DNA of 64,000 bases from Hydrolagus colliei (lineage: Eukaryota): assembly GCA_035084275.1 (NCBI GenBank), contig CM068742.1:54312001-54376000 (forward strand), in the 5' to 3' direction. Under the pieces are notes generated by a model. That model did no database searches. It had not been told where the DNA came from and saw only the letters and a program-made list of their open reading frames with translations. Both the position numbers and the translations under genes were made by a program. This document shows, piece after piece, positions 7,907-61,884 of this stretch (position 1 is its first letter; each line of letters opens with the position of its first letter).

Positions 7907-8070
7907 CCGGCTCCATTCAAATAATCTGTACTGCGATTGCCACTTGGCCTGGCTCTCTGATTGGCTGCGGCAGCGTCCGCGGGTTGGGCTGTACACACAG
8001 TGCATCGGACCGGGACACCTGAGAGGTCATAACGTTGCCGAGGTGCAAAAGAGGGAGTTCATTTGCTCTG
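7907..8070 (+). CDS. SLIT2: SLIT2 exon ~8 (164 nt), D1 LRRCT: [54 protein letters not shown]
   Basis: cttcttcag|C...TCTG|gtaaga; overlaps ORF 7944..8153. Confidence 0.97.
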
Positions 8071-8973
8071 GTAAGAGTGAGAAAGAACTGTTACAACTAA
8101 GAGAAATCAGTTGCCTGAGGCACTCTTGTGCCGTGCTAACCTGGTTCTTTTAGAAACTGTAAACAGCCACTTTTATAATATTTTCATTTAAGTCTGTACG
8201 GGATAGGTATGAGGCAGAGGCACACAGCAGCGTTTATAGAAAGAATCACTGAGGATTGGGGTTTGTATTAACTGCACATCAGTGTTTAACCTGAGTTGAA
8301 TTTTTCAGTGTAGATTTGAAATGTATAAATGTACAACACTTATTTAATATGATCTCTCCGTTCTACATGCCTTTTTTAATTAATGCTTATTTTTGACTAT
8401 GATGCTGTATGATATCTGTTTTCTTAGAACATTTCTAAACTAACATCTTGCGTGACTGTCTAAGCTTACTCCCTCCTATTTTGATCTCAATAAAACTGTA
8501 GGATGAATGCTTTAATAGTTGCTGTGGTTTGTTCACCATTACTTCTCTTGGTGATCCCAGAGATATTGAACCGAACATCACAGCGTTACCTCTGTAACTA
8601 TAATTTTGTGTTGGTTCTAAGCTTGCTGTTTCTTTTGGTCTTCAAAGTGGACCCATACCGCTGATTCTATCACATCTCTGGAGAATACAACCACCTCCGT
8701 AAATTAAAATGTCTTGGTTTTTTATTTTAATTTTGCTAACAAATCAAAACATAACACTTTAGATTTGCAATTCCCCTCACAAGGTGGCCCTTCACGGCAT
8801 GCATAGAATGTGATTTTGCTGAGATTGTGCCTCGATCTTGCCAAAGTGTATATTTATTCAGGCATCGGATAGTGAAAGGCTGCTCCATGACCTGCTTGTT
8901 GGTAGTCCCGGTGTGCTTGCTTTTCATTACTGCGGTTGACTAGCAAATTGCTCTTAGACGTCTTTCCCCTCAG

Positions 8974-8979
8974 GTTTTG
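8974..8979 (+). other. Candidate 6-nt phase-1 microexon (adds GF)
   Basis: tctttcccctcag|GTTTTG|gtaagt; keeps frame between exons 8 and 9; sequence-only prediction. Confidence 0.45.
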
Positions 8980-9162
8980 GTAAGTATGAGGCGAGTCTTT
9001 GCGTTTATATTGCTTTACTTTTGTACTGCTTTTCTTACTGTCTAAGGAAACCTGTAACCGATTGCTTGGAATGTTAACTACACGCCTTTGCCTGCAGTCT
9101 GCGGAAGGTACTTGCATGGCACTAATCTCATTGTGTTTTCTTTTCTCTCTCCCGCTTTCCAG

Positions 9163-9174
9163 ATGAGGATGAAG
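9163..9174 (+). CDS. SLIT2: SLIT2 alternative 12-nt microexon (DEDE) with a GC donor
   Basis: actaat...ttttcttttctctctcccgctttccag|ATGAGGATGAAG|gcaagt; same position as the mammalian SLIT2 DEEE insert (recalled). Confidence 0.88.
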
Positions 9175-12130
9175 GCAAGTTTTATTTCTGTTTTGTATAC
9201 TGTACTTTGCATAAGATGTGTTGACAGGGCCACTCTTTATTATGCAGGAGTATCCAGCATTCTGTACAGATTGTAAAGCTTTTTAGAATATACCTGGATC
9301 ACATTGACACCCCTGTTTGTACAAACTGGCTTTGAACAATTGCATTTACTTTCCTTGTCGCTGTTTAACACCCTCATCCATCACCTTGTAGAAGGCATGG
9401 GGCTTCTGCCCTGTAGTTGATAATAGGTACTCCTCAGTGAATTGAGAGCAAGTATTTTAATTGAAGAATCATAAGGGCTAGCTAAAATTCTGGTTGATAT
9501 TTTATATCGAAGCATTATAATCACATTAAATGCAGGGAAATTTTGTATTTTGTATTAGAACGCAGTAATATAAAACATCAACCAGAATTGAAATATCTCA
9601 AAGCACTTTATAAGATCTACTGTAAAGTGCGTTGGTGCTGGATTCGTTGGAGAATGCAGTAGCCAACATGCGCTTGGCAATGTTGGATTTCCACATTACA
9701 GTTTTGCATCACCAAAGGTGCTACACGTAGCGCCGATAGGAATTTCAGCCCGCTGTTGGATGTCCCAGAGCATAAGAGCAAAGCTCTCAGGTTCAGCACA
9801 TGAACTGAAAGATTTGATCGTCTTTCTTCTCATTCACTGAGACTTGCCCGTTGTGCTTCCCAATATTTGAAAGGTTGTAAATTATCCTCACATTTATACA
9901 GACTCTTCTTGACCCCTTGCATTTCTGTGGACAGCTAAAAGCGCGCTTTGATCTAGGACCAATTTTAAAGATAACGTAGCTAAATGTTATAGTGTGATTC
10001 CAATTTGCTTGTTTTTTTTAAATATATATATTTTCTATTTGCATCAACTTTTCTCCTCTCCTCTTTTGAAAGTGTTTTGGCTTTTGCTTTCCTTCTCTTG
10101 GGTTGTGATTCCATAGGTGCCCAATCATATCTTGCCCAAATTTCCACTGAAACAATGATTGTTCAGCACCTTGGGACATCCTCCGGATTTGAAAGGCGCT
10201 ATACAAGTGTAATTTTGTTGTTGTTGTATTCATGTGTGAACCTTGACAGGGAGTGTTAGTATTACCGAAGATATCGCAGTCAAACCTGATCCTGACATTC
10301 ACATACATGCAATCACATACATGACATTCACATACATGTAGCATCTAGATCAGAAGAAGAATGAATGCCTGTCTGACTTTTCCCTCCCAAACTCAAGAAT
10401 GTCAAAGTCATTTGTAGCACCCTCAAATACTTTCTTATCTATGATCAGATCATTTAGTTTAGATGGGATTAGAACCTGGATTGTTTTAGTGCTTTACCGG
10501 GTGGTGTTTTTACTTATTAAACCATCCTTTGTGTGGGTTCATGTACAGTAGTTATTTTTGAGATGACATACAGAGAAATTTCATATTTTGCCCATATATC
10601 ATATTTTATATTGTTAATCACCCCATAATTTAGATCCACACTCCTCACACAGTCACACTGCAGGGAGAGAACAGACATGTCAATAATACTTGTCAGGGCA
10701 TTACTACAACTTGTCAGACACCAGTCATACTGGGATGTGCACACACTATTTTTATAGCTAGGTTCTATTTCTCTCAGAATACCATTTTCTGGACTTGACA
10801 GCAAGCTTTTGTCCCCGACAGACTGGGAAGACATGCTGTTATGGTTACTAGTCATGTGGATGAAACATACACACACAAAAAATGCTGCATCCATTTAACC
10901 GGAGTGAATTTTTAATTAGAATGAAGTAGTGTTCAAGAGAAAGTCATTCAATCCCCTTTGTCAATTCAGCCTGCTGGGTTTATGTGTGTGATACAGTATC
11001 ATCTGTTTAGTTGGATAATCTCAGGTGCTGATTCTAATGTTTTGTTCTATATGACCCACATTGCACACAGGAAATGTAGCTGTGTTAGTACTTGAACTCA
11101 TTTGTGTAAACGCCAGATTTAAAGTTCCAAGTACATCCCTTGAGGCTTTTACAACTCAGTATTAAACGCCGGGGATAAAGCAATCTCCTTCTTCCTCTTC
11201 CACCTAATTTCAATTTGAATAGAAGTCATCATTTTCTTCTGAAATGAAGCTTCCTCCTCTGGTTCGGCAATTGTAGGGGAGCCGTACAGACCATGGTGGC
11301 TCAGATTTGATTCCTGGACTGTGCTCAGTTAGCTCATCTTTGCTAGGGCAAATTGAAGGTGCTTCATTTGACTTCAGTTTCGCAGGGAAAATCATTCAGG
11401 GTTTATTCAGGGACCCTTTGCTGGAAATACATATGTGTAGGGATGGGACCAGATCAGACTTAGATGTTGTGATTCTCTCCTCCCCCACATTCAAATAACT
11501 TTCAACGACTCATATATGAACAATAGCAGCGCGGATAAATTTGGGGGCAGCCCGTTATAACATAATGGTATAGGTCCATTAGCGGTGAAATGGAGTGCTG
11601 ACAAATGACCGTCGGTTCATGAAACCATTGCTGACACCACATCCAGCCTGTGCACTATGCATTAGATATCACCTCCTTTGCAAAGTGCATTTTGCGCATA
11701 ATGTAAATGTGCAAGAAGTGGCAACCTAATAACCCAGACGGGCTGTATTTTTAACAAGGGAAGCCCCTTAAGTACTCCTGGGTCAACGGTGGACAGGCGT
11801 TATCAGTGTATTCATGTTTAACAAGGACAAAGTCTAATGGGGCCCCCTGTACCTGTGAATCATATTCCAGTGGAAAAGAAAATTAAAGTAGGAGGTGAGA
11901 AAAACAGAACCCAGATTTTATCTCGCTGTTATGGCTCTTGTCTGTTCACTGCGATTCAGCACTCGTTATATATTTATGGTTGTGAATTGATGCAATTCAC
12001 ATGAAAGGTAGGTTGCTTAGTAAACAGTTGCGTGAAAGTTATGCAATATCCAGTGTGAGCAAGGGAGCCAGATCCCTGAGAATCTCGAATGATCAAATGT
12101 ATAGCCTGTATTGTATTTCCCCTGCTGCAG

Positions 12131-12275
12131 GCCACCAGAGCTCTCTCACACAATCATGCAGCGTCCATTCGAAGTCTTGCCCTGCCGTCTGCACGTGCAG
12201 CAACAGTATTGTGGATTGTCGTGGCAAAGGCCTCACCGAGATACCCATCAATCTCCCGGAGACGATCACTGAAAT
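12131..12275 (+). CDS. SLIT2: SLIT2 exon ~9 (145 nt), D2 LRRNT: [49 protein letters not shown]
   Basis: ctgctgcag|GC...AT|gtaagc; overlaps ORF 12001..12279. Confidence 0.96.
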
Positions 12276-35797: not shown

Positions 35798-35961
35798 GCA
35801 TTTGGCGCAGAACCCATTCATTTGTGACTGCCACTTGAAGTGGCTTGCCGACTACCTGCACGCAAACCCCATTGAAACCAGTGGTGCCCGCTGCACCAGC
35901 CCTCGCCGCCTGGCAAACAAGAGGATCGGGCAGATCAAAAGCAAAAAGTTCCGCTGCTCAG
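35798..35961 (+). CDS. SLIT2: SLIT2 exon ~14 (164 nt), D2 LRRCT with basic patch: [54 protein letters not shown]
   Basis: ctctcaaaag|G...CAG|gtaatt (AAG acceptor); overlaps ORF 35487..35969. Confidence 0.97.
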
Positions 35962-36299
35962 GTAATTGAATTCCGGCAACTTCATTATTATAGAAATGTC
36001 TTTTTTTTTAAAAAAAATAACTCTCTTGGTTTGATGCTGATCTCACGTAGATTCTGAAAATGCGTCTGTTTCGCTGTTGAATTTTTAAGGCTTTCAGCAG
36101 CTTTTCCCCTTTGTTTCATGCTAACCACAGTAGGTCAGTCAAGTTCAATTTGACTTTGCCTTTTATTTTGCTGCTGTTGACAAGACAGTAATGGAGTAAT
36201 CTGTGGATTTAATGCAAAGTAAATTGTTTATTTTTTTCTCTGGCCGCTAACATTCAGGTGCATCTCTTCTGTCTTTCTCTCTTTTTGTTGTGTTTGTAG

Positions 36300-36323
36300 C
36301 GAAAGAACAGTATTTCATTCCAG
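36300..36323 (+). CDS. SLIT2: SLIT2 exon 15, alternative 24-nt microexon AKEQYFIP
   Basis: tgtttgtag|CGAAAGAACAGTATTTCATTCCAG|gtaggt; peptide matches the known SLIT2 exon-15 cassette. Confidence 0.95.
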
Positions 36324-36384
36324 GTAGGTTTTCCTGCAGTGGGGCTAATGAGCTATGGATTTCTAATAGGTTTTAGTGGAGTGT

Positions 36385-36468
36385 TGCATGCTGTAGTTGT
36401 GCGGTGAGTCTCCCTTTAGATAGCCCCTTGCTTAGTCTTCCAGTAGCCGAATCTGTTGCTAATGCATG
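36385..36468 (+). promoter_or_regulatory. Two TGCATG (RBFOX-type) motifs downstream of microexon 15
   Basis: TGCATG at 36385-36390 and 36463-36468. Confidence 0.5.
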
Positions 36469-37099
36469 TGCTCTGTTAGCTACCTAGCCAAATCCTTAGG
36501 ACCCTGTGCTTCCTATGCCTGCTATACAGTTGCCAATATGATGGAGTTCTATTTATTCTCATTTTATTTTTGTGCCACTCCCCCACCTAGAGACCCTTTT
36601 TTAAGGTGGTTAATCTTGATGTATTCCCCAGACTTCTTTATTTGACTGGGGAACTTCCATGTATTTTACACACACACAAACACATACACAGATGGGAGAA
36701 TACCAATATTTGAAACTGGGAAGAAACAACTGGTGCTGACTTTGATTCACAGGTTTCCTCTCTCATGGTTCAGAAAGGGAAAGGAGAGCTTCTGGCCTAG
36801 GATAGTTGGAAAAGGCCAGATTAATGTCTGGACAATCCTGTGGGATTGAGGTACACAAACATTAGCAGTGGGCACAGTGAAGTAGGGGCCTTCATTCCTG
36901 AAAACAGGTGGAAATTCATGTGCACTCAATTTCTTCAATCCTCTGACTTGATCTGAGGCATCCGCTGTGCCTCTCTGAACCAAACACTTGAAGGTATCTT
37001 GAGTGTGCTCTTGGTTAATTGCCATTTGCATTTCCATCTTCACCTCTGCTCTTTCCATCTACAGGCTGAGATTGTAAGCTTCCCTTTCAGTTGGGCACC

Positions 37100-38020
37100 A
37101 TAGAACTATAGTTTCAATGGAATTGACAGCATAGTTGGAAGGCCATTTAGCCCATTGTATCTGCACTGGCTCCTTCGAGAGCCATCCTTTCAATCCTATT
37201 TACCAACTATTCCCCCATTCTCCTGCAGTTGACTCATTTTACTTATTTATCTAGTTCCTTTTTGAAAGCCATATGGATTTTGCCTCATTCCCCGAACATG
37301 GCAGAGCATTCCATATCCTAACATCCCTGTATGTGGAAGAAAAATTCTCCTAAACTCACCCATTTGTTTGTTTGCTAACTATCTCCCAGTGCCTTGGGAT
37401 GTTATCCCGACATGAAAGGCATTATACAAATGTAATGTTGTTGTTAAATTGATGCCCGCTCGTCACTGACTCACTGCCCAGTGGTAATAATTTCTGACAA
37501 TTAACATCTATCAAAATTTTAATGGCCTCTTATCAGATAATAATAATAATAATCCTTGCATTTGATATAGCGCTTTTCACATCTTATCGACGTCTCAAAG
37601 CGCTTCACAGAGTATACTGTAAAGTGAATTGACTGTATATATTTGTGGGCGAATCGCGGCAGCCAATTGCGCACAGCAGTGTCCCACAAACAGTCGTGGA
37701 TTGAAAATGACAATTTTTTTTATTATTGTGTTTTTTTTTGGAGGGATTATTATTGGGCGTGTGGAGTAAGGAAACTTGCCCAAGGTTTCGCCCTGACCTG
37801 CCTGGATTCGAACACATATCTCCCCAGCTTGAGTCTCCCCAGCTTGCAAGACAAGTGCTCTAACCACTGAACCACAGGAGCTTGAGAGATCACCTCTCAA
37901 CCATCTTTGTTCCAACAGAAAAAGACCCAGTTTCCCTAGTCTCTCCAGTATCATCTCCTCCGCACACACTCTAGTGCCTTCCTAAAGTTGGTTGAGAAAT
38001 ACTGCACACAATATTGTAAC
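37100..38020 (-). mobile_element. CR1-type LINE 3' fragment interrupted by a SINE
   Basis: ERLGKLGLFLLEQRWLRGDL (37885-37945) continues as LI beyond the SINE; CR1-like 3' UTR near 37120-37260. Confidence 0.7.
37537..37882 (-). mobile_element. Full-length young tRNA/Deu/L2-tail SINE
   Basis: A box ggttcagtggttagagc, B box gttcgaatcc, CpG-rich Deu core, (tta)n tail. Confidence 0.9.
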
Positions 38021-38028
38021 TATGCTCA

Positions 38029-38102
38029 TACTCACATTTTGTGGAGTTGAGGGAGTTTCTTGAAGACCCCAGTGGCTTCTAGCACTGTAAATTCATTGTT
38101 GT
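38029..38102 (-). repeat. Inverted partial duplicate of exon 17 plus its donor site
   Basis: Reverse complement matches 42794-42867 at 70/74 nt, including GTGAGTA. Confidence 0.95.
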
Positions 38103-38235
38103 GGGATGGAATTCCAAAGGCTGGGGGCAGAGTGGCTGAAGGCTTGGAGCGGATAGATTGGTAGGAGGTTAGGATGTCACAGAGAAAGGGTTGGACAAAG
38201 CCATTGGGCTTTAAAGGTGAGGACCAGGATCTACA
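38100..38235 (-). mobile_element. L2-type fragment fused to the inverted exon-17 copy
   Basis: The minus strand reads gccttcagccactctgcccccagcctttggaattccatcccac, matching the L2 copy at 44-86. Confidence 0.7.
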
Positions 38236-38337
38236 CCCCTATTTAGAACCTAAGATATTGTGAGACTCATTTTCTGGTGATTTTCAGAATCACTTCTGTT
38301 TCCTGAGGTGTGCTTTCTCATCCCTACTGCGATAGGA

Positions 38338-38426
38338 TTTACCAGATGCGTTGTTATGCAAAGTAGAGGCACTGACCAGGGCTGGGAGTGTTCAGTCACT
38401 TTGAATTTCAGTAACTAATTCAAAAG
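38338..38426 (+). repeat. ~90-nt direct repeat, copy 1 (copy 2 at 40312-40401)
   Basis: tttaccagatgc.ttgttat..aaag.agaggcactgac...ttcagtc.ctttgaatt.cagt.act.attcaaaag; about 11 differences in 90 columns. Confidence 0.85.
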
Positions 38427-39473
38427 TTGAACGGTGCCAAAAAGTTCCACCTTTAAAGAATTTATGAACATTGCGGGAGAGTGGGGTGGGAGGTGGGGTG
38501 GGGGAGGTTGGGGTGTATGAAAATGATCCATCTTCATATTTTTGGCAACAGTGTAGCTGTGCTGGTGAAGTGTAATTCTCTTACTGCTCTAGCTAATGAA
38601 GATTAGATTGTTCCCAGCAGACAATTTGATCTGAATAGACTAGCTAATCTTCATGTCCATTAATAAACGATGATGTGTGTTGTGTGAATATGAGTGGTGC
38701 ATATCGCTAATATGCTTGCGTACCGTTATGAATGCACAGTGAGCGTATTCTGACCTAACCCAGAGTGGAGCTACACGAGTAGTAAATCCCCAAGTACAAT
38801 CGAGATTGATTGCAGGAACTGTTTTGACTGTTTTTCAAGATTTAAGCCTTGGTTTCCCAGAGTATCTGACAAATATGTCAAGTGAATGAAATATTTAACG
38901 TGTCCGACAGCAGGCTGTAGGCATTTTTTATAGCCAGAGGCAGTCCGAGTGAATACTGAAGTTCTTCTGATGTGCTTTGGTGCAACATCCGTGAAGTGGC
39001 CTCCCTTGTGTTTACCATCATTAGCTGTAGACACCCATGGTTCATGTACAATGGAAGGATCTTGAAAGTGGTGCCACAGTCCAGTGCCTTTCAGGTTATA
39101 GATCAGGTAATAATTAGGGGATTATTCCCAGATATCCCACACCAGCAGGGAGTGCTTGCCTGGCACTCTATAACGTGCTGCTGGGAGTTGTTAAGACGTT
39201 TGCCTGACGGGTTCAGTGTATCTTCACAATCGTGCTGTACCCAAGTGGAGTCGAATCCAGGTTAGTGCAGCATTGCATTGTTTAAGTGCTTCCTAGTGAA
39301 GGTTACCTGAGCCAAGGATCTCTTCTATTTAGTCAAATTGACAACTAATGCCCTGTGAGAATCTTAACACAAATTTGGATTGGCTTCTTTGCTTTCCTGA
39401 ATATAAATGCAATTGCTTTCTCTTTCTCTATCCCCCCCCTCTCTCTGTCACTTCTATACTTTACTTTTTTCAG

Positions 39474-39491
39474 GAATTCACCATTTTGGCT
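39474..39491 (+). other. Candidate 18-nt phase-1 cassette exon
   Basis: AG-free, pyrimidine-rich tract 39360-39471, then cag|GAATTCACCATTTTGGCT|gtaagt. Confidence 0.3.
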
Positions 39492-40311
39492 GTAAGTACA
39501 ACTGAGATCTTTATTTCCCACCTCTGGCACCGATTTCTCTTTCCCTCCAGCTGTTTTCCCCCTATATGTTCTGAGCTTGATCCTTCACCCACCATTCCTC
39601 ACCTCTTCCCTCCGCAGTTCTCAACAAATCATTCAAGCCTCAGTAACAGTGCCCCTAACCCACCCCAGTACCATTCACGTGACCTCTCCCTGTTTTGTAA
39701 GCAGTGATACTAAGCACCAAGCTGGGGGCACTTAGAAAGAAAGAACTGCTCTTTCATTTAGGCATGTTTACTGCTTGTGTGTAGGGTATATTCTCATTAG
39801 CTGGTACACTGTTCATTGTTACTGAGTCTGAAAGGCAATGTTTTGGCTGTGAATACCAGTGCTTTAGTACCCTTGACCCCTAATGCTACATCCTCTACCT
39901 TTTAAATGCTGTGCCTTCTTTCCTCTAATACTTCCCCTCACACTTTTACCTGGCCTAGCTGATGCGGTTCTGAGACTCAGCGGGATTTTTCGTTGTGCTT
40001 GATCTAACCATGTGGTTGCAAGGTACGAATAAAACATGGTTCTGTCAAGCACCATGGAACGTCACGTAGCCTTCTACAGCAGGCTCTCATCTACAGCAAA
40101 TTCAGTAGATATATTTAGAGCGAGCCTGTCAAAGGCCACCACGACTTGGGATAGTAGTATTGCAGGTGGAAGATGTTAGAGCCAGGAACCTGTTTTATTG
40201 CATCTGTATTGAGGTCACAGCTGATTGAATTTCTCCAATAAAAAACAATGGATAAAAATGATAGATGAGGTATGGAGTGGAAAGACAGGTGAGGAGGGTG
40301 AATGCAATGAG

Positions 40312-40401
40312 TTTACCAGATGCCTTGTTATAGAAAGGAGAGGCACTGACACAAGGCTGGAAGTGTTCAGTCGCTTTGAATTCCAGTCACTGATTCAAAA
40401 G
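40312..40401 (+). repeat. ~90-nt direct repeat, copy 2
   Basis: Aligns to 38338-38426. Confidence 0.85.
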
Positions 40402-40782
40402 AATGGCTCAGGTGGGAGCAGTAAATTGAATTAGATAAGGCTTAGTAACACATGATTGCACTGGTTACGGGAGAGTGGGAAGTCTGCTAGCTTTGTAGTA
40501 GACAGTTGCATTGGAAGGTGTCTGCATTGAAAGGTCAGATTGTAAATGTTACCTCTTCTCTTCCGGACCCTGACTTTCCTTTGTCATAAAGTTCAAGATC
40601 TAGGTGCTTAGGTCTTGAAGTTTTGCTATCTGTGTGGTTTTAATTAAAGTTATCCTGAAATTCTCCTGCCCTGACATTTTGTTTAATTCCCTTGTACATT
40701 TCCACTTCTCTTATGGTGTGAATATGTTTTTTCCAACGTGCTTACTAAATAATATCTGCATTCTGACTGGACTCATCTGCAG

Positions 40783-40933
40783 GCACAGAGGATTACAGAT
40801 CCAAGCTCAGTGGAGATTGCTTCATGGATCTTGCTTGCCCTGAGAAGTGTCGTTGTGAAGGAACCACCGTGGACTGCTCCAATCAAAGACTTACTAAATT
40901 CCCTGACCACATCCCTCAGTACACCGCTGAGCT
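40783..40933 (+). CDS. SLIT2: SLIT2 exon 16 (151 nt), D3 LRRNT: [51 protein letters not shown]
   Basis: catctgcag|GC...CT|gtaagt. Confidence 0.97.
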
Positions 40934-56774: not shown

Positions 56775-57105
56775 TTGCACTTGTTTATAGTGCCTTTCAC
56801 TTTGGGAGGATGTCCCAAGATGCTGAGACATATTCATAAATAAAACGTCTTGTAATCCCCTCCTCTGCTCACCCCGTCTCTTAACTGTCACCATTGGTGG
56901 GCATGCATTCTACCTCTACCACCCTCCCCACCATTTCTGGAACTCCCTGCCTCAATCTGTACTTCTTGTGCCCTCTTTATCTATCCTTAAATCTAGGGCA
57001 TACCTCTTCGACCGTTCCTATAGTAGCTCCCGCTAATCCCTTGATTGGCATCCAACACATGACTTTCCTGCAGAAAGGTCACTATATAAATGCAAGTTGT
57101 TGTTG
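56775..57105. mobile_element. L2 tail (-) followed by an L2 3' fragment (+)
   Basis: gtgcctttcactttgggaggatgtcccaag (-); ctggaactccctgcc...aaatgcaagttgttgttg (+). Confidence 0.65.
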
Positions 57106-57171
57106 TCTTGTGAATCTGTGGAGAAATGTAGCTATCTGTGCTTCTCTGCCATTTGTCTCCTGTTTTTCCAG

Positions 57172-59599: not shown

Positions 59600-60030
59600 T
59601 GTGTAGCACTTTCTACATCGGGAGGACATCCCAAAGCTCTAGTCAGTGTTTCAGACATGAGCTGGGTGTCAGGAGGATGGAGGGCATGGAGAAAAGGAGG
59701 GTGACCAAAAACACGGTTGAAGAGGAGGGTCTTGAGACAGGTCTTGAAGCAGGCAATGGAGAAGATGTAGCAGAGTGACAATGGGATGGTGTACCAGAGG
59801 ATGGCAGCATAGTGGCAGAAGCCTCACCCACTAATGGTGGGGTAGGCAAGATGGAAGATATGAAGCGGGCCGGAACCCGCTGAATGAAGGGAATGGGCAA
59901 GTTGGTAGTAGGTTGTAGAGGTAGTAGGGGGAGTGAGGCAATGGGGGTTTGGGGGATGCGGACCAGGATCTTGAACTGTTTCCTCTGTGAGATGGGAAGC
60001 CAGTGGAGTATCAGGCTTGGTTTCAGTCTG
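59600..60030 (-). mobile_element. L2-type LINE 3' fragment
   Basis: ORF 59643..60056 has [16 protein letters not shown]; ORF 59548..59781 has FKTCLKTLLF; tail at 59600-59640. Confidence 0.8.
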
Positions 60031-60119: not shown

Positions 60120-60283
60120 GGCCCTTGGAGCAAACCCTCTACACTGTGACTGCAATATGCAGTGGTTGTCTGACTGGGTGAAGTCTGGCTACAAGGAGCC
60201 AGGTATTGCTCGCTGTGCAGGACCTGGTGACATGACAGATAAGCTCCTCCTCACCACTCCTTCGAAGAAGTTTGAATGTCAAG
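60120..60283 (+). CDS. SLIT2: SLIT2 exon 26 (164 nt), D4 LRRCT: [54 protein letters not shown]
   Basis: ccctacag|G...AAG|gtattg; overlaps ORF 59884..60351. Confidence 0.97.
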
Positions 60284-60549
60284 GTATTGCCATAAATTCT
60301 TCACTTTCTCTCTGCTTCATAGACATCTTTGATATCAATGCGAGGAATTAAATAAGAAATGTCTAGGTTATCTATCCAATTGTAATTAGTTATTAGTGAA
60401 TGGCGAACTTTGATTGTAAGAGTGGCAAAGGGAGCTTTCTGTAACCTTTAATCACCCTTTGACTTTCTTTTCTTGCCTTTTCTTGCTTGTAATCTAATAC
60501 TCTTTAATCTTTCACTTGCGACCTCTGTCATCCCAATCCCTGCCTATAG

Positions 60550-60582
60550 AGATTCCAGGGCCTTGCGGGTTTTTGGTGCCAG
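60550..60582 (+). other. Candidate 33-nt phase-1 microexon (EIPGPCGFLVP) in the D4-EGF1 linker
   Basis: 113-nt AG-free pyrimidine tract, CTAAT at 60494, TGC at -9, tag|AGATTCC...GCCAG|gtaagc; in frame, no stop. Confidence 0.55.
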
Positions 60583-61319
60583 GTAAGCCAGCCGAGCAGC
60601 CCTTGGCAATGATGGATGGTGTTAAACGGACCTTCTGCCTCTCCTTAAATGTGACCCAAAACAATTACCTAAATCCCTCCAGCAGATATGTTTTCCCTAG
60701 ACTAGCAGTGTCGAGTTTGGAAAGAATGTACAGTTTTCACACTTTCAGTCCTTGACCTCTGCCTTCAAACACAAGCTGTGTGTGGGCTTAAGCCTAGGTT
60801 GAGTGATGATTGTGGAGCATTTTGTGTTTGTCTTGAAAGCTGTATTACTTCTGTGTACACTTTGAAGTTTAATTTCAATTAAAAACAAACTAATTTTTGT
60901 GGATTGCAGACTATTTTTTAACAATGGGGCCAGTGATGCCTATTTAACACAAAAACAACCTCTGTATGCATCACTTTGACTTTGTTTGACACAGCCATTT
61001 GCCAGCAATTGTCCACTTATAATCCTTATTGACAATTTCGGAAAGTAATCTGCAGAAAATTCACAAAAAGAAACAGTAAAAAAATGGTTAATATTTACCT
61101 TGTCCTTGTAAAAATGCTCTGAGATCATAGCCTATATGAAGGACGCAATACAGATTGCGTGGGTTATTTTTGCTGCTAATGTTTGATACTGGAAAAGGAG
61201 AAACCTGGTCTTTGATAAAAACAAGTCGATGTCAATGATAAAACAGCCCACTGCATTCCTGGTTCTTATGCTTTGCACCACACCTGCAGTATATGAGCCA
61301 ACACTTGCAAATGTTTATT

Positions 61320-61468
61320 TCACTTCATTTTGTTTGTGGGACATTGCTGTGCACAAATTGGTTGTTGTGTTTGGCTGCAAAACACAGTCATAGTAAACCC
61401 TTGAAACCTTTTAAGATATTCTTCTGGTGTGAAATGTGCTATACAAAATACCAGGATTATTATTATAA
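61320..61468 (+). mobile_element. Partial Deu-core SINE
   Basis: tgtttgtgggacattgctgtgcacaaattgg...aggattattattat. Confidence 0.7.
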
Positions 61469-61759
61469 TTTCTGTCCAAATGTTACTTGTCAAACATTAA
61501 ATGGCTTCAGGTCCTTTGGGCTCATGTGCTGCACTGCTATTTAGATGTAGCAAGTTTTAATTTTGCTTAACGCAAACTATGCTAATGTGCGATGAAAATC
61601 AAACAAACGATGGGGAAGCAGTGCACTAGCCCCAAATAGTCTTGTGATTTTGTTGGCAATTCAATGAGTTCCATATTTCGTAACCATTTCCTAGTACAGT
61701 ACTAACCCTTAATGTAGAACTCACTTGACTTAAACAATTTATTTGTTTAACTTCTGAAG

Positions 61760-61884
61760 GTCCGGTTGACATCGCTACTCTGGCCAAGTGTAACCCTTGC
61801 CTTTCAAATCCATGCAAAAATGATGGAACTTGCTCTAATGATCCTGTGGATTTCTACAGATGCACCTGTCCTTACGGATACAAG
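61760..61884 (+). CDS. SLIT2: SLIT2 exon 27 (125 nt), EGF1: [42 protein letters not shown]
   Basis: ttctgaag|GT...AAG|gtatgt (AAG acceptor). Confidence 0.96.

What the first reader, a model, noticed from the sequence alone, without database searches (positions are those of the whole stretch)
60435..60588. Candidate 33-nt neural-type microexon between D4 and EGF1
Seen: no AG from 60435 to 60547 (113 nt, pyrimidine-rich), CTAAT at 60494-60498, TGC at -9 to -7, then tag|33 nt|CAG/gtaagc. It is phase 1 on both sides and gives FECQ-EIPGPCGFLVP-GPVD without a stop. A second acceptor (cag ending 60558) gives an in-frame 24-nt version. Established: a UGC just upstream of the 3' splice site is the SRRM3/4 microexon signature. 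Inference: a Pro/Gly-rich spacer with one extra Cys beside the D4 dimerisation domain, which could change Slit dimer geometry or allow a disulfide. I do not recall this insert among described SLIT2 isoforms, but could not search.
Basis: partly seen in the sequence, partly recalled or inferred. Interest (0 to 1): 0.75.

Follow-up and report, generated by a model that had tools for sequence, protein, structure and literature searches.

The report
Ancient retina-specific SLIT2 cysteine mini-exon
This is a real 33-base optional exon of the axon-guidance gene SLIT2 in a likely chimaera, matching an exon already catalogued as retina-specific in human, mouse, chicken and zebrafish; it adds one conserved extra cysteine that would likely form a new disulfide in retinal Slit2, a function we did not find tested in print.

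Summary
The exon is real. The same insert is in database SLIT2 models of sawfish, catshark, teleosts, frog, birds and a primate (19 of 222 junctions; Cys in all 16 clean copies), and contig ends in a relative's RNA-like run fit its inclusion.

It is already catalogued. Ciampi 2022 supplements list it as retina-specific in human, mouse, chicken and zebrafish (PSI 60-73 in retina, 0.1-4.8 in other neural tissue), and human retina long reads contain it. The 24-nt form was never seen.

Still open: its function and regulator. It makes the N-terminal Cys count odd (40 to 41). A sister 18-nt exon (39474-39491) adds another Cys, and one human retina transcript carries both.

The parts
60120..60283 (+). 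Upstream constitutive SLIT2 exon (exon 26 by my own count; C-terminal cap of LRR domain D4), ends in phase 1
   Evidence: phmmer to 2WFH, E 9e-31; tblastn; spliced contigs in X1 and X2
60435..60547 (+). 113-nt AG-free, pyrimidine-rich zone; U-rich tract set back from a weak C-rich acceptor
   Evidence: Acceptor score -0.8 vs 7.7-14.9 for the 21 constitutive exons the matrix was trained on. 5.5% divergence in a relative over 60399-60655 vs 13.2% in other intron pieces
60494..60498 (+). CTAAT, candidate branch point (A at -53); inferred from consensus only
   Evidence: five other weaker candidates lie in the same zone
60541..60543 (+). TGC at -9..-7; resembles the SRRM3/4 motif, but the orthologous exon shows no SRRM3 dependence
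60550..60582 (+). 33-nt cassette exon, phase 1/1, encodes EIPGPCGFLVP; orthologue of HsaEX6083753 / MmuEX0043692 / GgaEX1053891 / DreEX0073460
   Evidence: identical insert in Pristis RefSeq isoforms X4 and X6 and in a frog model; position match; X1 contig ends
60557..60558 (+). Internal AG that could give a 24-nt exon; no sign of use
   Evidence: 0 of 222 protein junctions; simulation gives contig end 60284, observed 60283
60583..60588 (+). Donor GTAAGC
   Evidence: score 8.1, inside the constitutive range 2.2-12.7
61760..61884 (+). Downstream constitutive exon (linker Cys and most of EGF1)
39474..39491 (+). Sister 18-nt cassette exon in the D2-D3 linker (reads ..GIHHFGC..); also adds one Cys; part of the novel case
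   Evidence: an 18-nt exon at the matching position is in human retina long reads

Best explanation
This is the cartilaginous-fish copy of a conserved 33-nt SLIT2 cassette exon that is included in retina and skipped elsewhere in four bony vertebrates, is likely retina-specific here too, and inserts 11 residues with an extra cysteine that likely forms a new disulfide in secreted Slit2.

Splicing. Shown: weak acceptor, long AG-free tract, normal donor, skipping and (indirectly) inclusion in a relative, no SRRM3 dependence in zebrafish eye. Inferred: skipping is the default, and a retina-specific factor other than SRRM3 or MSI1 alone switches it on, likely in inner-retinal (amacrine) neurons, the main Slit2 source.

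Protein. Shown: the insert starts one residue after the last Cys of the D4 dimerisation domain, doubles the D4-EGF1 linker from 11 to 22 residues, leaves the Robo-binding D2 sequence untouched and makes the Cys count before EGF1 odd (40 to 41). Inferred: the linker is normally tethered to D4 by an LRR-Cys/linker-Cys bond, so the insert bulges from a closed loop. Its Cys would cross-link Slit2 to the other protomer, to the Cys added by the 18-nt exon, or to a matrix partner, and so tune shape, avidity or spread in the retina.

Odds: real orthologous exon 0.97; retina-specific in this fish 0.8; not SRRM3/4-driven 0.75; amacrine source 0.6; new disulfide 0.45. The confidence figure is for identity plus retina-specific splicing.
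For: Protein models: 19 of 222 D4-EGF1 junctions carry an insert. The 16 clean 11-residue copies span sawfish, catshark, teleosts, frog, jay and a primate, with G4, C6 and P11 in 16 of 16.

Ciampi 2022 (PMC9303857; supplement rows and main-text passages seen): retina PSI 66.2, 72.6, 63.3, 60.1 in human, mouse, chicken, zebrafish vs 0.08, 0.04, 0.08, 1.2 in other tissues. The human event lies between an exon holding a whole LRRCT and one starting an EGF domain. srrm3-mutant eye dPSI is -3, while two other slit2 exons fell by 26 and 50. Ectopic SRRM3, SRRM4 and MSI1 gave dPSI of 0.4 or less, while the 12-nt SLIT2 exon rose 17-19 with SRRM3/4 in the same HEK293 data.

Human retina PacBio atlas (PMC11450717, supplement rows): a transcript with 6 full-length reads includes it, with a 339-nt upstream intron against 266 nt here.

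Relative's runs: X2 joins 60280 to 61757 (skip). X1 contigs end or start at 60283, 61758 and 60555, a triple reproduced by 1 of 10 simulated isoform mixes as long contig ends (skip + 33-nt inclusion + downstream intron).

Slit2 source: amacrine layer from 48 hpf in zebrafish, starburst amacrine cells in mouse, and higher in photoreceptor-less Aipl1-/- retina (log2 WT/KO -1.78). Cys layout: 10 per LRR domain, 40 in all.
Against: No eye or brain RNA of this species was available. The tissue of X1 and X2 is unknown, their RNA status is the tool's guess (though they hold spliced contigs), and the inclusion junction itself was not printed in the cut tables; it is inferred from contig ends, assuming k=31 and using the window's sequence in place of the relative's.

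The ectopic-expression test is weak: the 27-nt SLIT2 exon, which is SRRM3/4-dependent in vivo, also failed to respond in HEK293 (0.54 and 0.16). srrm4 was intact in the mutant rows I saw. TGC at -9 and a distant branch point do fit the SRRM profile.

The cell type is inferred from gene-level expression only. No peptide for the insert was found in the retina atlas supplements (0 hits; one file was cut when stored). The LRR-Cys/linker-Cys tether rests on the Cys pattern and on recall of Slit D2/D3 structures; the D4 crystal construct stops at Cys907, before the linker. Models gave pLDDT of about 50 or less over the insert. The human exon's letters were not seen.
Confidence: 0.8

Rival explanations
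1. Classical pan-neural SRRM3/4-activated microexon: UGC before the acceptor recruits SRRM3/4 in neurons.
For: TGC at -9, branch point about 53 nt upstream, long pyrimidine tract; these features mark neural microexons (PMC12871342 passages). About 60% of zebrafish neural exons of 28-51 nt respond to srrm3/4 loss.
Against: Neural PSI is 0.08-4.8 in four species; it is not in the zebrafish neural list; it is unchanged in srrm3-mutant eyes; it does not respond to ectopic SRRM3/4 in five cell lines; TGC also occurs at 4 of 21 constitutive acceptors.
Confidence: 0.12
2. Photoreceptor exon driven by Musashi (MSI1/2) binding UAG downstream.
For: It is filed among the retina-enriched long exons, a class partly MSI1-regulated; eye inclusion rises from 2.6 at 48 hpf to 36 at 5 dpf as the retina matures.
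Against: MSI1 expression in HEK293 gave dPSI 0; there are only 2 UAG in the 200 nt downstream and none in the first 100; Slit2 is higher in photoreceptor-less retina; Slit2 does not occur in the 6 ASCOT supplements searched; the exon was not among the 4 Slit2 rows of the Murphy 2016 table, which was cut when stored.
Confidence: 0.15
3. The insert works without a new disulfide: as a spacer or hinge that moves the EGF arm away from the D4 dimer, or as a short hydrophobic binding motif (CGFLVP), with the Cys conserved for packing.
For: G4, P11 and the hydrophobic positions are as conserved as the Cys; the other Slit2 linker exons (12 nt, 24 nt) carry no Cys; both models hint at a small two-strand hairpin over the insert, at low confidence.
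Against: An unpaired Cys kept in 16 of 16 copies of a secreted protein whose other 40 N-terminal Cys come in an even, repeated pattern is hard to explain without a bond (inference).
Confidence: 0.4
4. Chance or non-functional cryptic exon in this species.
For: Very weak acceptor score; only the skip form was seen in X2; none of the 8 Callorhinchus models seen includes it.
Against: 11 of 11 residues are identical to sawfish and frog models; the flanks are as conserved as coding exons in a relative (5.5% vs 13.2%, Fisher p 4e-4); the X1 contig ends fit inclusion.
Confidence: 0.02

Closest known systems
SLIT2 33-nt retina-enriched long exon ('RetLONG'): HsaEX6083753, MmuEX0043692, GgaEX1053891, DreEX0073460 (Ciampi 2022, PMC9303857, Datasets S1, S4, S6, S10 as seen in supplement rows)
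   Same: Same gene, length and position (LRRCT exon | 33 nt | EGF exon), short upstream intron (339 vs 266 nt), same peptide family in database models.
   Different: Here in a cartilaginous fish, a lineage the paper did not cover. Tissue pattern in this species is untested. The paper's main text never names slit2 (0 occurrences).
RefSeq-predicted SLIT2 isoforms of elasmobranchs and teleosts (e.g. XP_051893373.1, XP_051893388.1 Pristis; XP_038647427.1 Scyliorhinus; XP_021331538.1 Danio)
   Same: Identical or near-identical 11-residue insert at the same junction.
   Different: Automatic models with no tissue or function attached; none of 8 Callorhinchus models seen has it.
Slit2 27-nt (9-aa) SRRM4/NOVA2-dependent microexon in the EGF region (PMC4387716 and PMC4930328, passages seen; HsaEX0060156, DreEX0073464)
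   Same: Short in-frame exon in Slit2-N, retina-enriched, found on the same human retina transcript.
   Different: A different exon, beyond this window's last exon; no Cys; also included in brain; srrm3-dependent. That NOVA2's 'exon 28b' is this 27-nt exon is my inference.
Slit2 exon 15 (24 nt, AKEQYFIP) splice variants (PMC6406468, abstract and passages seen)
   Same: Short in-frame exon at the matching place in the linker after an LRR domain (D2); shows that such linker exons can change Slit2 activity.
   Different: Widely included outside the retina, no Cys, functionally studied.
SRRM3/4-regulated neural microexon programme
   Same: UGC near the acceptor, distant branch point, extended pyrimidine tract, frame-preserving, deeply conserved.
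   Different: 33 nt; near-zero inclusion in non-retinal neural tissue; no srrm3 dependence in the eye.

Membership tests
SRRM3/4 neural microexon | Length 3-27 nt | tested here: not met
   33 nt; definition
SRRM3/4 neural microexon | UGC between pyrimidine tract and 3' splice site; distant branch point | tested here: met
   TGC at -9, candidate branch A at -53; weakly specific, 4 of 21 constitutive acceptors have TGC
SRRM3/4 neural microexon | Enriched inclusion across neural tissue | tested here: not met
   Published values for the orthologues: neural PSI 0.08, 0.49, 0.31, 4.8; absent from the zebrafish neural list. Not measured in this species.
SRRM3/4 neural microexon | Dependence on SRRM3/4 | tested here: not met
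   Published values: srrm3-mutant eye dPSI -2.6, +1.1, +11.0, -3.0 over four stages; ectopic SRRM3/4 at most 0.38. Double mutant not seen.
SLIT2 33-nt retina-specific exon (orthogroup of HsaEX6083753) | 33 nt, in frame, between the D4 LRRCT exon and the EGF1 exon of SLIT2 | tested here: met
   gene is SLIT2 (91-97% to SLIT2 of bird and cartilaginous fish, 72-73% to SLIT1)
SLIT2 33-nt retina-specific exon (orthogroup of HsaEX6083753) | Peptide homology across jawed vertebrates | tested here: met
   16 clean copies with G4, C6, P11 invariant; the human exon's own letters were not seen
SLIT2 33-nt retina-specific exon (orthogroup of HsaEX6083753) | Alternative: both skipped and included forms exist | tested here: met
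   Skip contig in X2; inclusion inferred from contig ends in X1, both from a relative; both forms in shark and ray models
SLIT2 33-nt retina-specific exon (orthogroup of HsaEX6083753) | Retina-restricted inclusion in this species | not testable with these tools
   No tissue-labelled RNA run was listed
Musashi-dependent photoreceptor exon | Downstream UAG cluster | tested here: not met
   0 UAG in +1..+100, 2 in +1..+200
Musashi-dependent photoreceptor exon | Response to MSI1, or loss in photoreceptor-less or Msi-knockout retina | tested here: inconclusive
   MSI1 in HEK293 dPSI 0; exon not in the stored part of the Aipl1 table; knockout data not seen

The most novel reading that the evidence does not exclude
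Retinal Slit2 carries a splicing-built disulfide clamp. Two separately regulated short exons, conserved since the first jawed vertebrates, each drop one unpaired cysteine into the tether loop behind an LRR domain (18 nt after D2, 33 nt after D4). When both are included, as on human retina long reads, the two cysteines bond (within a chain or across the D4 dimer) and lock the LRR array into a retina-specific shape or covalent dimer that resets Slit2 range or Robo avidity in amacrine circuits.
Probability: 0.15. Interest if true: 0.7.

Novelty: already known. Interest (0 to 1): 0.35.

Why it matters
The exon itself is catalogued, so the discovery value is modest. What this window adds is depth and a testable handle. 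The exon and its weak-acceptor layout reach back to cartilaginous fish. It is one of the most retina-exclusive exons listed (specificity score 74-132 in four species), yet it escapes both regulators usually invoked, SRRM3 and MSI1 alone, which points to an unexplained retinal splicing route. Retinal Slit2 shapes horizontal-cell lamination and direction-selective circuits (PMC12998706, PMC12553481; neither main text uses the word isoform), so about two thirds of retinal Slit2 transcripts may encode a form with an unpaired cysteine beside the dimerisation domain that I found no study of. One Cys-to-Ser construct and a non-reducing gel would test it.

Tried and rejected
No whole genome is held for this window, so no genome search was possible. 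The run search listed no holder on record as RNA.

Structure prediction of D4 + insert + EGF1 (sawfish sequence): with 6 sequences it was uninformative (pLDDT 36); with 100 sequences the LRR core was confident, but the insert was about 50 or lower and EGF1 unfolded. It says nothing on disulfides. No complex prediction or fold search was run: the D4 dimer is already solved.

RNA folding of 60430-60640 showed no stable structure (z +1.9). A search of shorter proteins gave one skip-form fragment. Earlier scan findings: none.

The 24-nt form is rejected as unused. Co-occurrence of the two Cys inserts in database models (12 both, 7 D4 only, 10 D2 only, 182 neither, of 211) was not used as evidence, because models are combinatorial and species repeat. 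The left-over depth in X1 over 60439-60619 (about 10x over 37 nt) fits an inclusion piece but could be a repeat match; not counted. No insert in lamprey (0 of 15 models) or SLIT1 (0 of 10 by my labelling) is only absence from predicted models; SLIT3 was not sampled.

Nine paper searches listed no study of this exon's function. Most subscription journals, VastDB itself and bioRxiv supplements could not be seen, nor could the supplements of PMC10987577; any of these may describe it.

Full report
OBSERVATION. The window holds 22 consecutive SLIT2 exons on the + strand that join into one open frame of 796 aa, 97.4% identical to Callorhinchus SLIT2, 93-95% to sharks and rays and 72-73% to SLIT1. 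The source is therefore likely a chimaera. All sequence claims hold: a 113-nt AG-free zone (60435-60547), CTAAT at 60494-98, TGC at 60541-43, and a 33-nt phase-1 exon at 60550-60582 with donor CAG/gtaagc that reads FECQ-EIPGPCGFLVP-GPVD. Each motif alone is unremarkable: TGC occurs at 4 of 21 constitutive acceptors and 2 of 21 have longer AG-free zones. The acceptor is very weak on a matrix trained on the window's own exons (-0.8 vs 7.7-14.9); the donor is normal.

IS IT AN EXON? Yes. Of 222 database Slit proteins with a readable D4-EGF1 junction (the last search was aimed at insert-bearing forms, and species repeat), 19 carry an insert and 203 skip. Sixteen have a clean 11-residue insert: sawfish and a frog are identical to the window; catshark, teleosts, a jay and a primate gene model differ at 1-4 places. 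G4, C6 and P11 are invariant. Three more are mis-started models containing the same peptide. None has the 8-residue form.

RNA OF A RELATIVE. Three runs were laid. X3 matches the window's DNA. X1 and X2 come from a relative (6-8% different in exons) and hold spliced contigs; their tissue is unknown. X2 joins the flanking exons directly and has an unspliced piece over 60399-60655 with 14 differences in 255, against 106 in 804 for four other intron pieces (Fisher p 4e-4; two pieces left out as overlapping or partly exonic; the table was cut). In X1, long contigs stop at 60283 and start at 61758 and 60555. Of 10 isoform mixes simulated as a k=31 graph, only skip + 33-nt inclusion + downstream intron gives those three long-contig ends with no extra split. 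The 24-nt form gives 60284, intron retention alone gives 60285 and 61757, and adding a full pre-mRNA or both exon lengths adds further short pieces. This is indirect: the junction itself was not printed and k=31 is assumed.

WHAT IS KNOWN. Supplement rows of Ciampi et al. 2022 (PMC9303857) list a 33-nt SLIT2 exon as retina-enriched in all four species studied. PSI in retina / other tissues / neural is 66.2/0.08/0.08 (human HsaEX6083753), 72.6/0.04/0.49 (mouse), 63.3/0.08/0.31 (chicken) and 60.1/1.2/4.8 (zebrafish). The human event sits after an exon holding a whole LRRCT and before one starting an EGF domain, which in Slit2 is only the D4-EGF1 junction. A human retina long-read atlas (PMC11450717, supplement rows; 2 of 5 SLIT2 rows seen) has a transcript with 6 full-length reads that includes it and marks its junctions as known. 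Ciampi's main text does not mention slit2, and nine searches listed no functional study, within the library's limits. The well-known SRRM4-dependent Slit2 microexon (9 aa, EGF region) is a different exon.

REGULATION. The exon is not in the list of 708 zebrafish neural exons, where only the 27-nt slit2 exon appears. In srrm3-mutant eyes it is unchanged (32.8 vs 35.8 at 5 dpf) while the 27-nt and a 21-nt slit2 exon drop by 26 and 50. Ectopic SRRM3, SRRM4 or MSI1 do not induce it. That test is weak, since the 27-nt exon also failed in HEK293, though the 12-nt exon responded. srrm4 compensation is not excluded. There is no downstream UAG cluster or RBFOX site; six YCAY and many CU-rich elements lie upstream, in positions the paper links to repression outside photoreceptors. 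Retinal Slit2 comes mainly from the inner retina: amacrine layer from 48 hpf in zebrafish (passages), starburst cells in mouse (figure legend), higher in photoreceptor-less retina. Eye inclusion climbs from 2.6 at 48 hpf to 18 at 60 hpf. I infer default skipping and activation by an unidentified factor, likely in amacrine cells.

PROTEIN MECHANISM. D4 is the homodimerisation and a heparan-sulphate-binding domain; Robo binds D2; the crystal construct ends at Cys907 (PMC2693880, first third of the text and passages). The insert begins one residue after that Cys. Each of D1-D4 has ten Cys: four per cap, one in an LRR and one in the following linker. This pattern, and my recall of Slit D2/D3 structures, suggest an LRR-to-linker tether bond; no call showed it. 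The exon doubles the D4 linker (11 to 22) and makes the count before EGF1 odd, 40 to 41. The most likely role is a new disulfide that alters shape, dimer stability or matrix attachment of retinal Slit2 (about 0.45); a spacer or binding-motif role without a bond is nearly as likely (0.4). Structure prediction did not decide it.

A SISTER EXON. An 18-nt exon at 39474-39491, after exon 15 in the D2 linker, also adds one Cys. With both, the count is even again (42). The human retina transcript above carries an 18-nt exon at the matching place together with the 33-nt and 27-nt exons; a second transcript, also 6 reads, has the 18-nt exon alone. The zebrafish 21-nt exon that depends on srrm3 is likely its orthologue, judged by length and order only. 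Pairing of the two cysteines is the boldest reading (0.15); the lone-18-nt transcript shows that they need not come together.

VERDICT. A real, ancient exon, correctly spotted from raw sequence, but already catalogued and retina-specific rather than a neural SRRM3/4 microexon. Novelty: already known. Interest 0.35, for an unstudied, cheaply testable cysteine switch in retinal Slit2 and an unexplained splicing route.

Noticed in passing
window 39474-39491 (+): 18-nt cassette exon after SLIT2 exon 15 that adds one Cys (..GIHHFGC..), with a 112-nt AG-free zone. Present in shark, ray, teleost, frog, lizard and bird models (22 of 211); a matching 18-nt exon is called novel in the human retina long-read atlas.
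   Followed up: partly
window 9163-9174 (+): 12-nt exon (reads DEDE) in the D1-D2 linker with a non-canonical GC donor (AAG/gcaagt); likely the orthologue of human HsaEX0060157, which responds to SRRM3/4.
   Followed up: partly
window 36300-36323 (+): Known exon 15 (AKEQYFIP) is present, with 11 UAG in the 200 nt downstream, the most of any exon in the window; a possible Musashi-type cluster.
   Followed up: no
window 8070-12131, 35961-40783, 60283-61760: Three of the four phase-1 introns that follow an LRR C-terminal cap host short in-frame exons (12; 24 and 18; 33 nt). After D3 only two sturgeon models show an 11-residue insert, also with a Cys (P0012, P0046).
   Followed up: no
window 60555-61074 (+): The intron downstream of the exon is also fairly conserved in the relative (5.4% substitutions, 21 gap letters in 501), so regulatory elements may lie there.
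   Followed up: no
window about 57000-57106, 59600-60010, 61330-61470: High-copy repeats: depth in the thousands to hundreds of thousands in the laid runs; not identified.
   Followed up: no
P0054 (primate model) and P0070, P0174 (cyprinid models): The primate insert starts GL instead of EI/EV, and cyprinids have PC to TC and L to P changes, but the Cys stays.
   Followed up: no
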